Assembly: GCF_963506605.1 (NCBI RefSeq)
Contig: NC_083284.1
Coordinates: 20,522,001 to 20,586,000 of the forward strand
Direction: 5' to 3'
Source: Zootoca vivipara
Lineage: Eukaryota
Length of the DNA stretch: 64,000 nt
Made by a program: the position numbers. Numbering within the stretch: the stretch's first letter is position 1; each line of letters begins with the position of its first letter. Below are positions 5,032 through 11,000 of the stretch, one piece after another.

Positions 5032-8000
5032 TTAAGAAGAAAAGCTTAGTAGAATCAGAGGTCAATGTGATGGAAAGGCAGGATGGCAAAGGCTTTTAAG
5101 ATGAATAAATATTGCCCCCAAATTTCATCTGCACACCTATTATGTCCACCAACACTTTCCCACACTGTCCATCAACAACATATTTGGGTTCCTCACTTGC
5201 ACAGATTTCAATAGGTGGCTGTCTCTAGACATTGCATTGGCAAGTCACCATGTAAATGGGTCTAGGCACCTGTTTTGAATCCTCCAAAAATTTCCCTTAT
5301 ATTATTTTGCTGCCCACCAATAAGAAGGGAAACTTTTGTTAGAGGTTTTTAAGCAGAGGTTGAAAGGATAGTTTAGCTGAGTTTCCTGCAATACAGGGGT
5401 TTGGATTAGTAGACTCTTGGGGTCCCTTCCAACTCTGCAATTCTATGATTATATGACCAGTGTTCATTAAGGAGTATCCTTGGTTTTTGCATGTCCAATT
5501 TCTGCCATGTTCCTGCAGCCCATTCTATGGAGCATGTTCAGAGGAGGGGGACAAGGATGGTGAGAATTTTGGAAACAAAGTCCTATGAGGAACAATTTGA
5601 ATAGCTGGATATGGTTAGTGAAATATACTCGGAGTCAAGAGTGAATTTCATGCTCTTTATTCAGCTCATAGTCATCAAGGAGGAGAAGAGAAGACGAATG
5701 GCTCTTTTCCCAAAACCATCTGCTTATATACATTATTTACACAATGGGCCTTGCGTGATTGGCTACTTCAGGGCTACACCTGTGGGCCAATTATATTGTG
5801 GATTGACTTTTGCCTGCAGCCTGATTGGCTGCTCCTACAGGCCAATCAGGTAGCAGATTCACTTCTGCCAGCCGCCTGATTGGCTGCTCCAGCAGGCCAA
5901 TCAGGTTGCGGATTCACTTCCACCTGGAGTTGGATTGGGTAGCTCCCGCTGATTCTGAATCCTATTGTTCTAGGATTCAGCTCAGTACATAACACCCCTC
6001 CCCTCTAAGTTCCAGTCCTGCCCGGGAAGTTGCATTCGTAGTCCCCAAGGTCTGCTGGCCGCCTCCGTGTGCGTTGTGGCCTGGGGTGTTCCTTGGTCAG
6101 GGGTTCTGGTTCTGGCTCGTGTTCCGAGGCTGCTGGCTGTGCCGGGGATGTCTGGTCTGGCGCCACTGAACCACTAGGTTGTAGCTCTGGTTCCGGTGTC
6201 CTTCCAGCCTCGGGGCGCCCCTCTGTGCCTACTGCTTCTGCTTCCTCTGCCCACCCCTCTCGCTCTACAGGCCTCACTGCCCTGCTGTCCCCTTGGGACC
6301 CCTCTGTCCCGCTCTCCTCCCGGGTTCCTCCTGGGAATCGTCGCCGTATCTGGTCGCAGTGGCGGCGCCAACATTGCCCCCCTTCCGTTAGTACCTCGTA
6401 CGACACGGGACCGGTCACCTTGGTGACTGTGGCGGGTACCCATGCTGGGCCTGCCCCAAAATTCTTTGCATACACTGGGTCCTGGGCCACAAATGTCCGG
6501 GGGTTCCTGCCTTTCCCCACCACTACCTCATCCTGAGCTCTGTCGGGGTGAAGTCGGTCCAGTCTAGTTGCAAGGCGCCGGCCCATTAGTAATTCAGCTG
6601 GGCTCCGGCCCGTCGTTGTGCTTGGGGTGCTGTGCTGTGCTAGAAGAAATGCGGCAAGGCGGTATTCCCAGTCCCCTTGTGTCATGCGGCGGAGGCTGTC
6701 CTTGGTGGTCCGCACCATGCGCTCCGCTTGGCCATTGGTGGCAGGGTGGAATGGTGCTGAGCGGATGTGGCGGATGGCGTTCTGCGCTGTGAAGGTCTGG
6801 AACTCCTCTGACGTGAATGCGGTTCCATTGTCCGAGACGAGGGTGTCAGGGAGCCCGTGGGTCGCAAACAGCTTACGTAGTACCCGGATGGCTGCCGCCG
6901 TAGAAGTGGACGGTACCAGTGCGACCTCCAGCCATTTGGTGTAGGAATCCACCACTATGAAGAATGTTTTTCCCTGGAAGGGGCCAGCGAAGTCCACGTG
7001 CAAGCGTGACCATGGATGTCGGGCGGACTCCCAGGGCTGGACTGGGGCCCTTGGGGGATCCGGGCGGGATTCTTGGCAGGTCTGGCAGTGTTGGACCCAG
7101 GCCTCTATCTCTCTGTCAATCCCCGGCCACCACACATAACTCCTGGCAAGGGCCTTCATCCTCACTACCCCTGGGTGTGTCTCGTGTAGGGCTGTGAGGA
7201 CCCTTTTGCGGAGGGGCTGGGGAACAACAACCCTGCTTCCCCATAACAGGCACCCCTTGTGGGCCGACAGTTCATGTTTGCGGTTTGTGTAGCCAGCGAA
7301 TTCTGGCCCGGGGCTGCTGCTGGGCCATCCTCGCCACACCCAGTCCAGGACCCGGGAGATGACCCTATCTTTTGTGGAATGGTGCGCAACTTCTTGTGCC
7401 TGAATGGGTCGGTCGGGAAGCAGCTCCAGGGTCATAACCTCTTGCGCAGGCGCTGGGTCGGGGCCTGTTTCTGGTAGTGGTAGCCTGCTGAGGGCGTCTG
7501 CGTGGCCCATCGCCTTCCCAGGGCGGTGGATTAGTGCATACTGGTAGCCGGCAAGGAAAATTGACCACCTGAGGACACGTGGAGACAACACTTGGGGGGT
7601 CTGCTTCTCAGGGGCAAACAGGCCAAGCAACGGCTTGTGGTCAGTCACTATGGTAAAGGGCCGCCCGTACAAGAAATCATGGAATTTTTTTACGCCCTTC
7701 ACGATTGCCAGACCCTCCTTGTCAATCTGTGAGTAGTTTCGTTCGGCTGCAGCAAGCGTCTGGGAGAAGTATGCCACCGGCACCTCTCTTCCATCCGGGA
7801 GTTGGTGTCCCAGGACAGCGCCGATGCCATAGGGAGAGGCGTCGCATGCCAGCACCACTGGCAACCTCTCGTCGAAGTGTGCCAAGACCGAGTTCGAGAC
7901 GAGCAAGTCCTTGACTGCCTGGAATGCGGCCCTTTGTCGCTGGCCCCACACCCAAGGGGCCCTTTTATCTAGGAGTCTGTGTAGGGGCTCCGCTACCGCT

Positions 8001-11000
8001 GCCTTATGGGGAAGGAAGGCATGGTAAAAGTTCAATAGTCCCAAGAATGACTGAAGTTCGGGCTTGCTCTTGGGCGCTGGGGCCTCACAAATGGCCCGTA
8101 CCTTGTCACCGGTTGGATGGACCCCTTCTGCGTCCACCTTAAATCCCAGAAAGTCCACCTGCGGCACTCCCAGTAAACACTTTTCCCGCTTCACCTTGAG
8201 GCCCGCCGTCTGGAAACGGTGCAGGACGGAGCGGAGGCGGTCCTCAAATTCCTCTGGTGTGGGCCCGGCGATCAGTACATCATCGAAGAAGGGGGTGACA
8301 CCAGGAATCCCTTTAAGGAGAGAGTCCATTAGATTCTGGAATATGCCTGGTGCCACGCTAACGCCAAATTGCAGCCGCTTTACTCTGAATGCCCCTCTGT
8401 GCGTCACAATCGTCTGAGCCTCTGCTGTGGCTTCGTCCACAGGCAACTGTTGATACGCTTGGGCCAAGTCCAGTTTGCCAAAGATTTTTGACCCAGCCAG
8501 GGTGGCGAGGACATGGCTGACCACTGGCACTGGGTATGCATGGGCCGTGAGAGCCTTGTTTATGGTGCATTTGTAGTCTGCACAGATGCGGACCGAACCG
8601 TTAGGCTTGACGGGTGTGACAATTGGAGTTTCCCAGGGGGCGTTGGGCACCGGCTCCAGCACTCCTTGCTCCACGAGCCGGTCCAATTCCTCGTCTATGC
8701 GGGGTTTCAGGGCAAACGGGACCCGGCGGGCCTTGTGCCTGATGGGTCGTACAGCGGGGTCTAGCTGTAGGGCAATGGGGGGTCCTGTATATCGTCCCAA
8801 TGCCCCATCGAAAACCCCTGGAAACTCTTTGCATATGGCGTCCACGTCCACTTGTAAGCTAGTGCGGTTCACCCCGGTAACGGCTAGCCCCAGAGGTCCA
8901 AACCATGCCAGTCCCAGTAAGCTAACGTAGGGGCCCTTAACTACCAGCAAGTCCAATTGTTGCTTTCGCCCTCGATATTGCACCCTGAAGGTCCCCACCC
9001 CCATAGTAGGGACCTTACGTTTCTGGAAGTCCCGGAGGGTGAATGGGGCCGGCCTTAGTTTGGGACCCCCATTAGGGCACAATTCCCTTAATGTTCGGGC
9101 CGAGATTATGGATAGAGTTGAACCCGTGTCCAGCTCCATGCGGCATGGGGCTCCCTCTATCTGTACCTCTATATAAATTTTCTCTGTGCTGGGATGGGGC
9201 AACTGGAATACCTGGTAGTCCGTGATCTCCGTCGAGTTGCCTTGGTGCATGGTGCCGTGTGACCTGGGGCTCCTGGGTTGGTCATCTGATGCTTGTCGAC
9301 GGGTGAGTCGAGCCCGACACACCCGGGCGATGTGTCCCAATTTTCTGCACTGCCTGCACTCTGCGTTGCGGAAACGACAGGTCCTCCTCTCGTGGTTCTC
9401 CCCGCAGCTTGCACAGTTCCCTCCTTCTCGTCGAGGCTGCTGTGGTGTGTATGCTGCTTGAGTGCGCCGCTGTACTCGGTGTACTTCCTCCCTGTCAGAT
9501 TCGGATTCGTCGGTGAGGTCTTCGTGGTAGACCCTCGGTTGGGATGGCGGAGCCGGTCGTGCCTCTTGCGTTGACCTCTCGGCGGCTTCGGTTGCCAGGG
9601 CTTCCTCCAGAGCAATCTGGAACGTGAGGTCTTTTTTGGCGTAGAGGCGTCGTTGCAACATCTCGTCCCTCAGGCCACCGACGAGGCGGTCACGAAGCAT
9701 GTTCTCCAATTCTGAGAAGTTGCATAACCGGGCGGCTTGGCGGAGGGAGGTCACAAACCCAGTTATGGTTTCCCCCGGGGCTTGCCGTTTTGCGTAGAAG
9801 GCATTTCGGCAAGCTACCACCGAGGGCTGTGGTGAGAAGTGCTCCTTCAGCCGTTCCATTATTGTTTTGTAAGAGACGGTAGCGACATCTCTAGGTGCAA
9901 GGAGAGCCCGGGCGATTTCAAACGTCTCCTCTCCACAGACGCTGAAGAATGTCGCCCTCTTCATGGCATCGTTGGTGACTTCTTTCGCTTGCAGGAGGAA
10001 GTTGAAACGGGCGGCGTACCCTTCCCAGTCTCCTGATGCTGGTTTGAATGGCGAGAAGCTGCTGTCGGTTGCCATTCTGGGTTCCTTGGGTCCTGGAGCT
10101 GAAGCCTGGATGCACGGTGCGATGCAGCGGTGCAGCAGGTGGCGGTGCTGCGGTGCAGTGCGTGGTGGCGGTCAGCTCAGCAGGATCCCATCCTCGTCGC
10201 CAGTGAAATATACTCGGAGTCAAGAGTGAATTTCATGCTCTTTATTCAGCTCATAGTCATCAAGGAGGAGAAGAGAAGACGAATGGCTCTTTTCCCAAAA
10301 CCATCTGCTTATATACATTATTTACACAATGGGCCTTGCGTGATTGGCTACTTCAGGGCTACACCTGTGGGCCAATTATATTGTGGATTGACTTTTGCCT
10401 GCAGCCTGATTGGCTGCTCCTACAGGCCAATCAGGTAGCAGATTCACTTCTGCCAGCCGCCTGATTGGCTGCTCCAGCAGGCCAATCAGGTTGCGGATTC
10501 ACTTCCACCTGGAGTTGGATTGGGTAGCTCCCGCTGATTCTGAATCCTATTGTTCTAGGATTCAGCTCAGTACATAACAGTTAGCTTGCAGAATACATGA
10601 TTAAGGGAAGACAGAATAGCAGCTTTCAAATATCTGAATGGCTGTTATGCAGAAGATGGAGGCGACTGGTTCTCTGTTACTGCATTGGGCAGAACTAGGA
10701 TCAATGGATGGAAACCTCAGGGAAGAAGAAGTTCTATGATTCAATGCAATAACAGCCATACTGTATATCACCGACTTTAATCAATCCACACCTCCAAGCA
10801 AACTTCCTATTAATTTCCTTCCTGTGAGGAGCAGAATAGGTTCGATGGAGAGTTGTGATCCTGCAGGAGGTACCCCAACCAGCACACAGGTGCCATGGCC
10901 CAAATGGCAGGATTTAAGGGCAGTGACCTGTTTGAGACACAAAGAAAAACAACCTCAGAAATGGAGAAAAAGGAACATAAAAGCATATGAACATAACAGC

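What the first reader, a model, noticed from the sequence alone, without database searches (positions are those of the whole stretch)
5614..10584. Very young, apparently transposition-competent Gypsy element inside an ADH gene
Seen in the sequence: two 376-bp LTRs with no visible mismatch, a perfect GTTAG TSD, an 18-nt tRNA-Ser PBS, a PPT directly abutting the stop codon, and an uninterrupted 1356-aa gag-pol ORF. It is CpG-rich compared with its flanks, so little methylation decay has occurred. Established: LTRs are identical at the time of insertion. Inference: the insertion is recent and possibly polymorphic, and the family may still be active in this lizard.
Basis: partly seen in the sequence, partly recalled or inferred. 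Interest (0 to 1): 0.7.

Follow-up and report, generated by a model that had tools for sequence, protein, structure and literature searches.

The report
Young intact Gypsy retrotransposon in ADH intron
This is a structurally complete, recently inserted Ty3/Gypsy LTR retrotransposon sitting in intron 7 of an alcohol dehydrogenase gene of the common lizard, which is an ordinary kind of find for a lizard genome.

Summary
Window 5619-10579 (minus strand) is a 4,961-bp LTR retrotransposon. It has two 376-bp LTRs identical at 376 of 376 positions, a 5-bp GTTAG target duplication and an 18-nt primer-binding site that matches a tRNA 3' end. A polypurine tract touches the stop codon, and one open frame of 1,356 codons runs through the interior. 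Domain order is protease, RT, RNase H, integrase; the best solved relative is yeast Ty3; catalytic residues align. There is no env and no chromodomain.

The host is Zootoca vivipara. The element lies in intron 7 of an ADH1-like gene, in the gene's own orientation, and all nine exons still match the RefSeq protein exactly.

A second full-length copy (6 of 1,356 residues different) is annotated on another chromosome-sized contig. Its 90% cluster holds 133 member sequences, so the family is multi-copy and recently amplified.

Four things are not shown: mobility, insertion polymorphism, the 'Ser' identity of the tRNA, and Mag-lineage membership. Identical 376-bp LTRs bound the age only to roughly 2-4 Myr or less. 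The CpG argument is weak, because the LTRs are as CpG-poor as the flanks.

Verdict: real, a new member of a known kind, of modest interest.

The parts
5614..5618 (.). Target-site duplication, left copy (GTTAG)
   Evidence: identical to 10580-10584
5619..5994 (-). 3' LTR in element sense, 376 bp, TG...CA. It holds an AATAAA at 5656-5661 and 55-bp tandem repeats at 5801-5946.
   Evidence: identity; motifs, repeats
5995..6004 (-). Polypurine tract, 10 nt. It runs on into the AG of the stop codon.
   Evidence: read; ORF end
6005..10075 (-). Single gag-pol open reading frame, 1,356 codons plus TAG, no break
9176..10075 (-). Gag-like N-terminal 300 aa. Two zinc knuckles (aa 221-233 and 240-253, nt 9317-9415) are invariant in 23 aligned sequences. 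The capsid fold was not verified.
   Evidence: invariant C/H columns; no significant family or PDB hit; Atlas lead: Gag/Retrotrans_gag/Ty3_capsid clusters, 0.90-0.94
8903..9172 (-). Aspartic protease, aa 302-391, DTGS at aa 316
   Evidence: E 0.0014, below the curated cut-off; motif; D316 and G318 invariant
8135..8578 (-). Reverse transcriptase core, aa 500-647. The active-site motif reads FFDD and aligns with YLDD of Ty3.
   Evidence: (FFDD in 16 of 120 listed relatives, YFDD in 65)
7544..7948 (-). RNase H, aa 710-844
   Evidence: E 2.6e-33 and 1.1e-31
7061..7225 (-). Integrase HHCC zinc-binding domain, aa 951-1005
   Evidence: E 1.4e-17
6743..7015 (-). Integrase catalytic core, aa 1021-1111, with D, D, E aligned to Ty3
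   Evidence: E 7e-14
6008..6565 (-). C-terminal tail, aa 1171-1356, with no recognised domain and no chromodomain
10076..10184 (-). Untranslated leader between PBS and start codon
10185..10202 (-). Primer-binding site, 18 nt, complementary to a tRNA 3' end including CCA, one base from the LTR
   Evidence: (15 nt identical to a listed tRNA-derived fragment); isotype not verified
10204..10579 (-). 5' LTR in element sense, 376 bp. It holds 55-bp repeats with paired CCAAT boxes at 10386-10531, a TATA-like hexamer at 10310-10315 and an AATAAA at 10241-10246.
10580..10584 (.). Target-site duplication, right copy (GTTAG)
10790..10927 (-). Host ADH1-like exon 7 (aa 279-324 of P0022, exact), about 205 nt upstream of the insertion in gene sense. 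GT follows the last matched codon.
4813..4950 (-). Host ADH1-like exon 8 (aa 324-369 of P0022, exact), about 660 nt downstream of the insertion in gene sense

Best explanation
Window 5619-10579 is one copy of an autonomous Ty3/Gypsy (Metaviridae-type) LTR retrotransposon of Zootoca vivipara, read on the minus strand. It entered intron 7 of an ADH1-like gene by integrase-mediated insertion, which duplicated the 5-bp target GTTAG.

The copy still carries every sequence part that the known replication cycle of such elements uses:
- LTRs with a U3 region holding tandem 55-bp repeats rich in CCAAT boxes, a TATA-like hexamer and a poly(A) signal;
- a tRNA-complementary primer-binding site;
- a polypurine tract;
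- one unbroken gag-pol frame with protease, RT, RNase H and integrase motifs in place.

Shown: the anatomy, the host gene, the orientation, and a second near-identical full-length copy elsewhere in the genome. Inferred: the insertion is recent (at most a few million years), the family amplified recently in this lizard, and this copy may still be able to move.

The element lies in the same orientation as the gene, so its LTR poly(A) signals face the ADH transcript and could end some transcripts early. This is inference only. The gene's nine exons are intact and RefSeq models a protein across the insertion.
For: - LTRs 376/376 identical, TG...CA ends, GTTAG on both sides.
- 1,356-aa ORF without a stop.
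- Pfam order is protease, RVT_1, RNase H, Integrase_H2C2, rve.
- The best solved relatives are yeast Ty3 Gag-Pol 7q5b (E 2.2e-88; 5.8e-135 with a profile) and Ty3 RT 4ol8; retroviral RTs and integrases score far lower.
- Catalytic D/DD/DEDD/HHCC/DDE positions align with Ty3. Two zinc knuckles are invariant in 23 sequences.
- PBS and PPT are at the canonical places, and the PBS string is listed as a tRNA-derived fragment.
- Host gene: P0022, ADH1-like isoform X1 of Z. vivipara, matches nine exons exactly from 15262 to 3788 on the minus strand, with the element between exons 7 and 8.
- Family: P0121 of Z. vivipara is 1,356 aa long and differs at 6/1356 residues. Its cluster has 133 member sequences, and it sits on a 123.6-Mb contig, while the ADH protein sits on a 78.3-Mb contig.
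- Partial relatives at 85-95% identity occur in Podarcis and Lacerta.
- Gypsy elements are reported as recently and actively transposing, with many private insertions, in another lizard, Anolis carolinensis (PMC7561263, passages read).
Against: - One haploid assembly cannot show polymorphism or mobility.
- Identical LTRs of only 376 bp date weakly.
- Identity could also come from LTR-LTR gene conversion, or from assembly polishing of a multi-copy repeat towards its relatives. No reads were available to check.
- Evidence for other copies is at protein level only.
- The capsid part of Gag has no significant sequence match, and its fold could not be predicted.
- The RT motif is FFDD rather than the more usual Y-x-DD. 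It is shared by 16 of 120 listed relatives, so it looks typical of a minority within the group rather than a defect.
- No other copy, fragment or solo LTR lies in the window.
Confidence: 0.85

Rival explanations
1. The copy is intact in outline, but the family is no longer mobile. All near-identical copies would date from one burst some hundred thousand to a few million years ago, and this insertion would be fixed.
For: Zero differences in 376 bp still allows an age up to roughly 2-4 Myr (inference). The window ORF and P0121 differ at 6/1356 residues, so copies have diverged a little. Nothing here shows expression.
Against: An unbroken 4,071-nt frame and identical LTRs are what a very recent insertion predicts. 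A 90% cluster of 133 member sequences suggests many young copies. Gypsy activity is current in another lizard (PMC7561263 passages).
Confidence: 0.3
2. The insertion is older than it looks. Its LTRs were made identical by gene conversion between them, or by consensus polishing during assembly.
For: Both processes are known for repeats (general knowledge). No read-level data could be examined.
Against: An old copy should also have lost its 1,356-codon frame, and it has not. Its protein is 99.6% identical to a copy on another contig. TSD, PBS and PPT are all perfect.
Confidence: 0.07
3. The element is not really at this locus, and a repeat copy was placed here by mis-assembly.
For: Multi-copy young repeats are a common source of assembly errors (general knowledge).
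Against: The element is flanked by an exact 5-bp duplication of unique intron sequence. Both flanks continue into exons 7 and 8 of one gene in the right order and strand.
Confidence: 0.03
4. It is an endogenous retrovirus or an env-bearing errantivirus-like element rather than a plain Gypsy retrotransposon.
For: Retroviral RT and integrase chains are among the weaker PDB hits.
Against: The interior is 4,209 nt, of which 4,071 are the single ORF, so there is no room for env. Ty3 is the best hit by tens of orders of magnitude.
Confidence: 0.01

Closest known systems
'Uncharacterized protein K02A2.6-like' of Zootoca vivipara (P0121, RefSeq/UniRef name as given by the source)
   Same: Same length (1,356 aa), 1,350 of 1,356 residues identical, same Pfam domains. 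It belongs to the same family.
   Different: It is another locus on a contig of a different size (123.6 Mb against 78.3 Mb). The 6 residue differences fall as gag-like 2, RT 1, C-terminal tail 3. Its LTRs and flanks could not be seen.
Yeast Ty3 (PDB 7q5b Gag-Pol, 4ol8 RT/RNase H)
   Same: Same domain order. RT through integrase aligns over aa 438-1166 with the catalytic residues in register.
   Different: Distant in sequence. Ty3 makes Gag and Pol from two frames (recalled), whereas this element has one frame. The Gag parts match only non-significantly around the zinc knuckle (E 8.4 for 6r22).
Mag lineage of Ty3/Gypsy (Mag of Bombyx, SURL of sea urchins, Jule of Xiphophorus)
   Same: A compact element of about 5 kb with a single gag-pol frame, no env and no chromodomain. 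Its relatives are spread over vertebrates, ticks, insects and nematodes. This fits the description of Mag as the most widespread metazoan lineage (PMC6238403, passages read). The features of Jule and the tRNA-Ser primer of Mag are recalled, not taken from a call.
   Different: No reference sequence of Mag, SURL or Jule could be obtained, so no tree with them was made. Membership is a lead, not a result.
Polymorphic Gypsy insertions of Anolis carolinensis
   Same: A lizard genome with young Gypsy copies, interpreted as recent and active transposition (PMC7561263, passages read).
   Different: A different host family. Relatedness to this element was not examined. Those data are population data, which are lacking here.

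Membership tests
Ty3/Gypsy (Metaviridae-type) LTR retrotransposon | Direct LTRs ending TG...CA, flanked by a short target-site duplication | tested here: met
   376/376 identical LTRs, TG...CA ends, 5-bp GTTAG on both sides
Ty3/Gypsy (Metaviridae-type) LTR retrotransposon | tRNA-complementary PBS next to the 5' LTR and a polypurine tract next to the 3' LTR | tested here: met
   The PBS is at 10185-10202, one base from the LTR, and 15 nt of it equal a published tRNA-derived fragment. The PPT is at 5995-6004 and abuts the LTR. The tRNA isotype was not verified.
Ty3/Gypsy (Metaviridae-type) LTR retrotransposon | Pol domain order protease, RT, RNase H, integrase (integrase last) | tested here: met
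   Pfam stretches at aa 302-391, 500-647, 710-844, 951-1005 and 1021-1111
Ty3/Gypsy (Metaviridae-type) LTR retrotransposon | RT and integrase closest to Ty3-type rather than retroviral or caulimoviral enzymes | tested here: met
   7q5b E 2.2e-88 and 4ol8 E 7.5e-64, against 3.9e-38 for the next hit (8r0s) and 1e-32 or weaker for retroviral chains. The order is the same with a profile.
Ty3/Gypsy (Metaviridae-type) LTR retrotransposon | Gag with a capsid domain and nucleocapsid zinc knuckle(s) | tested here: inconclusive
   Two invariant knuckles. zf-CCHC reaches only E 0.14 and there is no capsid family hit. The best PDB hit has E 0.69. The Atlas feature search gives Gag/Retrotrans_gag/Ty3_capsid clusters at 0.90-0.94, which is a lead only.
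Mag lineage of Ty3/Gypsy | Pol or RT phylogeny places the element with Mag, SURL or Jule reference elements | not testable with these tools
   No tool returns those references by name, and they did not appear among the 120 of 648 hits listed. The paper with the Mag sequence is not held.
Mag lineage of Ty3/Gypsy | No chromodomain and no env; one gag-pol frame (feature list recalled) | tested here: met
   No Chromo hit at E <= 0.01 on the whole protein, nor at E <= 10 on the last 196 aa. Single ORF, with 138 nt of interior left over.
Mag lineage of Ty3/Gypsy | PBS complementary to tRNA-Ser (recalled for Mag) | tested here: inconclusive
   A tRNA 3' end is confirmed, but the isotype is not stated in the text that was read. 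There is no tRNA gene in the window.
Chromoviruses (chromodomain-bearing Ty3/Gypsy) | Chromodomain at the C-terminus of integrase | tested here: not met
Endogenous retrovirus / errantivirus | An env reading frame after pol | tested here: not met
   The stop codon touches the PPT and the 3' LTR. Other minus-strand ORFs of 80 aa or more inside the element (3 of them) all overlap the polyprotein frame.

The most novel reading that the evidence does not exclude
The family is mobile today in Zootoca vivipara, and this copy is a segregating insertion allele. Because it lies in the sense orientation 205 nt after exon 7, it would change the output of this ADH1-like paralogue, either through LTR poly(A) signals that end transcripts early or through LTR promoter activity. 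It would then be a natural, datable case of a Gypsy insertion altering a metabolic gene in a tandem ADH array of an amniote.
Probability: 0.15. Interest if true: 0.5.

Novelty: new member of a known kind. Interest (0 to 1): 0.25.

Why it matters
Most amniote genomes, those of mammals and birds above all, hold few or no intact Gypsy elements, whereas squamates keep them. A copy with identical LTRs, a whole frame and a clean target duplication marks a family that amplified very recently. It also offers a ready presence/absence marker for Zootoca populations, including the egg-laying and live-bearing lineages. Its sense orientation inside a functional ADH paralogue makes it a candidate for a natural effect on gene expression. 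None of this is surprising to a transposon specialist, so the value is that of a well-characterised example rather than a new principle.

Tried and rejected
The copy count therefore rests on the cluster size alone.
The second try came after 20 other calls, as the tool asked. The capsid fold is untested.
- The protein-atlas search did not hold the window's own sequence. I used the stored homologue P0121 as the tool suggested; the result is a lead only.
- No tRNA gene lies in the window and there is no Rfam match in 5000-11000.
- The PBS isotype was sought in the literature. The 15-nt string is in 4 papers, and none of the passages read names the tRNA.
- Two papers are not held: the Mag sequence note, PMC333496, and the Anolis TE profile, PMC3190321.
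- Literature searches for this family in Zootoca or lizards (listings and abstract starts) found no description of it.
- Searches for further copies or solo LTRs in the window found nothing beyond the element itself: blastn, and tblastn with 5 relatives.
- Flank repeats: only weak short matches elsewhere in the window, so no evidence that the target was another repeat.
- A 'shorter' protein search found no short Zootoca models among the 120 of 320 hits listed.
- Rejected readings: retrovirus or errantivirus (no env), chromovirus (no chromodomain), chance repeat.
Supplementary files were not consulted.

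
Full report
OBSERVATION.

The finding's coordinates run from one copy of GTTAG (5614-5618) to the other (10580-10584). Between them lie two 376-bp direct repeats, 5619-5994 and 10204-10579.
- The two repeats are the same string.
- An alignment with 19 and 16 flanking bases is identical through the repeat and falls apart outside it.
- blastn reports 378/378 because two more bases (AG) match by chance on one side.
- The repeat finder found this pair and no other direct repeat of 40 nt or more in 4500-12000.
- On the element's strand the LTR starts TG and ends CA.

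The only long reading frame is 6005-10075 on the minus strand, 1,356 codons with no stop. The element therefore reads right to left in window coordinates.

On that strand the 5' LTR is followed, after one base, by 18 nt that begin TGG (+ strand 10185-10202). The TAG stop (6005-6007) is followed at once by ten purines (5995-6004), which abut the 3' LTR. The interior is 4,209 nt, of which 4,071 are the frame.

Two need qualification, and they are treated in the next two sections.

PBS IDENTITY.

No tRNA gene lies in the window, and no lizard tRNA set was within reach. I searched the paper library for a 15-nt stretch of the + strand inside the PBS. It occurs in 4 papers.
- In PMC11855652 (table passage read) it is the 3' part of an entry in a list of tRNA-derived small RNAs, preceded by TCGA as in a T-loop. 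The window adds the letters expected for a CCA end.
- In PMC4378994 (table passage read) the same letters sit in a small RNA labelled as a microRNA-offset RNA.

Neither passage names the tRNA. A search for the fragment's name found only the first paper.

CpG.

Observed/expected CpG:
- 0.655 in the interior (59% G+C);
- 0.62 for the whole element;
- 0.295 in each LTR;
- 0.30 in the 5.6 kb to the left;
- 0.25 in the 2 kb to the right;
- 0.35 in the rest of the window.

The element as a whole is richer in CpG than its surroundings, but its non-coding LTRs are not. The contrast therefore reflects the composition of the coding sequence of this family. It does not measure the time this copy has spent at this site.

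WHAT THE FRAME ENCODES.

Pfam finds, in order:
- an aspartic protease (aa 302-391, E 0.0014, below the curated cut-off);
- RVT_1 (aa 500-647, 8.5e-19);
- two RNase H models (aa 710-844, 2.6e-33 and 1.1e-31);
- Integrase_H2C2 (aa 951-1005, 1.4e-17);
- rve (aa 1021-1111, 7e-14).

Among solved structures the best matches are the yeast Ty3 Gag-Pol polyprotein (7q5b, E 2.2e-88, aa 438-1166) and Ty3 RT/RNase H (4ol8, 7.5e-64). An 'enzymatic polyprotein' chain (8r0s, 3.9e-38) and the retroviral and foamy-virus enzymes score much weaker (50 distinct sequences at E <= 0.001). A profile of 23 sequences gives the same order (163 hits, 60 shown).

In the printed alignment with Ty3 the catalytic aspartates of RT, the acidic residues of RNase H, the H-H-C-C positions and the D, D, E of integrase are all in register. 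The protease motif is DTGS at aa 316.

The RT motif reads FFDD where Ty3 has YLDD. Among the 120 relatives listed a simple pattern count gives YFDD 65, FFDD 16, YLDD 13, other forms 8 and no match 18. FFDD is thus a recurrent variant in this group.

The last 186 residues match nothing. There is no chromodomain at E <= 0.01 on the whole protein, nor at E <= 10 on the last 196 residues.

THE GAG PART.

- Residues 1-300 give no significant family or PDB match (zf-CCHC at E 0.14; 12 sequences at E <= 10, best 0.69, mostly retroviral two-knuckle nucleocapsids and Ty3 Gag).
- An alignment of the window's first 320 residues with 22 named full-length relatives has invariant C221, C224, H228, C233 and C240, C243, H248, C253. 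That is two zinc knuckles.
- A feature search with residues 1-300 of the 99.6%-identical homologue P0121 returns clusters named Gag protein or carrying Retrotrans_gag, Ty3_capsid and zf-CCHC at scores of 0.90-0.94. By the tool's own figures this is a lead, not proof.

'Gag' is thus supported by position and by the nucleocapsid knuckles. The capsid fold was not tested.

THE LTR.

On the element strand the LTR has 55-bp tandem repeats, 2.2-2.4 copies. It has seven CCAAT/ATTGG motifs, against 0.78 expected and at most 5 in 2,000 shuffles. It also has one TATA-like hexamer at position 265 and one AATAAA at position 334 of 376. This layout fits a U3 with repeated enhancer-like boxes, a short R and a short U5. 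The boundaries of R are inferred, not shown. AATAAA or ATTAAA occurs on this strand only at these two LTR sites in the whole element.

HOST AND LOCUS.

Six-frame stop-to-stop frames of 45 aa or more outside the element number 612. I scanned the 150 that lie in 1-20113 against Pfam. Six had any family at E <= 0.01. Three of these were ADH families on the minus strand (10784-10954, 11315-11920, 13054-13380), two of them above the curated cut-off. The other three were weak sub-threshold hits.

A search with the exon at 11333-11590 returned ADH1-like proteins. One is 100% identical: P0022, 'alcohol dehydrogenase 1-like isoform X1 [Zootoca vivipara]', 377 aa.

I compared P0022 with the window exon by exon and did not join the exons; the joined step was left out. 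It matches exactly at nine places on the minus strand:
- aa 1-7 at 15262-15242;
- aa 7-40 at 14506-14405;
- aa 41-88 at 13359-13216;
- aa 88-116 at 12569-12483;
- aa 118-192 at 12373-12149;
- aa 192-279 at 11590-11327;
- aa 279-324 at 10927-10790;
- aa 324-369 at 4950-4813;
- aa 370-377 at 3811-3788, followed by TAA.

GT follows the last codon of exon 7. The element therefore lies in intron 7, which is about 5,839 nt long, 4,966 of them element plus one TSD. It sits about 205 nt after exon 7 and 660 nt before exon 8, in the same orientation as the gene.

'Inside an ADH gene' is correct, and the coding exons are untouched. Because the orientation is sense, the LTR poly(A) signals face the ADH transcript. 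Whether they end any transcripts early is unknown.

OTHER COPIES.

Within the window there is no other copy, fragment or solo LTR (blastn; tblastn with 5 relatives).

In the protein collection, 648 proteins had E <= 1e-10 among 7,999 scored, and 120 were listed. The best hit is P0121, 'uncharacterized protein K02A2.6-like [Zootoca vivipara]'.
- It is 1,356 aa long and represents a 90%-identity cluster of 133 member sequences.
- It differs from the window's protein at 6 of 1,356 residues: gag-like part 2, RT 1, C-terminal tail 3.
- It was seen on a contig of 123.6 Mb, whereas the ADH protein was seen on one of 78.3 Mb. So it is another locus.
How many are separate, full-length loci is therefore open.

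Three further Zootoca clusters among the 120 are only 52-55% identical (P0133 with 67 members, P0140 with 7, P0160 with 1). They belong to other families.

The same family is present in related lacertids as partial models:
- Podarcis raffonei P0125: 789/913 identical, with 70 gap positions.
- Lacerta agilis P0143: 387/447 and 276/311 identical.
- In the search among shorter proteins (320 at E <= 1e-20, 120 listed), Podarcis raffonei and P. muralis models at 85-95% identity. None of the 120 is from Zootoca.

This pattern fits a family inherited within Lacertidae that has stayed intact and multiplied in Zootoca. It does not fit an element newly arrived from outside.

AGE (inference).

With no difference in 376 aligned sites, the 95% upper bound on LTR-LTR divergence is about 3.0/376 = 0.8%. 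Assume a neutral rate of 1-2 x 10^-9 per site per year; this range is recalled, not taken from a call. With T = K/2r the bound is about 2-4 million years. The unbroken 4,071-nt frame pushes the likely age lower, but not by an order of magnitude. 'Very young' is thus the most likely reading, but the sequence alone does not separate thousands of years from a million.

CLASSIFICATION.

The element meets the structural tests for Ty3/Gypsy and fails those for chromoviruses (no chromodomain) and for env-bearing elements.

It also fits the description of Mag as the most widespread metazoan lineage (PMC6238403, passages read).

No Mag, SURL or Jule sequence was obtainable, so no membership test was made. 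The features of Jule and the tRNA-Ser primer of Mag are recalled only.

LITERATURE.

Searches found no description of this family:
- Mag, Gypsy, lizard, LTR retrotransposon (83 papers, 15 listed);
- Zootoca vivipara with transposable elements (38 papers, 15 listed);
- K02A2.6 with Gypsy (3 papers).

For these I saw listings and abstract starts only. PMC7561263 (passages read) reports 45,625 polymorphic Gypsy insertions in the total column of its Table 1 for green anoles and their outgroups. It reads the many private insertions as recent, active transposition. A young intact Gypsy copy in a lizard is therefore expected rather than surprising. Supplementary files were not consulted.

VERDICT.

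It is a new, well-preserved member of a known kind. Mobility, polymorphism, tRNA isotype and clade remain open.

NOT CHECKED.
- The cluster members.
- The Gag fold.
- The last 40 of the 116 frames of 78 aa or more beyond 20 kb. I scanned 76 of them. Two hit ADH_zinc_N and none hit a transposon family.

Noticed in passing
window 3788-15262, 21044-27300, 33620-38978, 48685-54069, 63723-63878 (all minus strand): A tandem array of at least four ADH-like genes plus the 3' end of a fifth, all in the same orientation. Only the first matches P0022 exactly; the others are 42-80% identical per exon.
   Followed up: partly
window 33605-47500 vs 48670-62577; also 32000-33188 vs 62556-63700: A tandem duplication of about 15 kb at 98.5-98.8% identity, carrying one ADH-like gene per unit. 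A third unit begins at the window's end, at 92.7% identity over 1.2 kb.
   Followed up: partly
window 24842-25008: The single run of 167 N lies next to the ADH-like gene at 21-27 kb. It was left as it is.
   Followed up: no
window 23817-24686 (minus): In the second ADH-like gene, residues 88-297 of the lacertid proteins align as one tblastn piece of 870 nt (alignment length 290). The introns between these exons must therefore be very short or read through without stops.
   Followed up: no
relatives P0128, P0133, P0149, P0135, P0170, P0198 (not in the window): A neighbour-joining tree was built from 22 named full-length relatives (1,232 columns). The Rhipicephalus microplus tick protein falls inside the squamate group in 199 of 200 bootstraps, and squamates alone are never recovered (0 of 200). 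It groups with lacertids in 192 of 200, while Xenopus stays outside. The Ornithodoros tick protein groups with Trichinella in 200 of 200. Identities are only 54-57%, so any transfer would be ancient. The sampling is sparse and the method simple. Tick-vertebrate transfer is described for Bov-B LINEs (PMC11752866, passage read). A search for the same in Gypsy elements listed 8 papers, of which I read passages of that one only, and they do not describe it.
   Followed up: partly
relatives P0125, P0143, P0241-P0244, P0258, P0299: In Podarcis and Lacerta the same family appears only as partial or 'low quality' gene models at 85-95% identity. Zootoca, by contrast, has a 133-member cluster of full-length form. 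This hints at different fates of one family in sister genera.
   Followed up: partly
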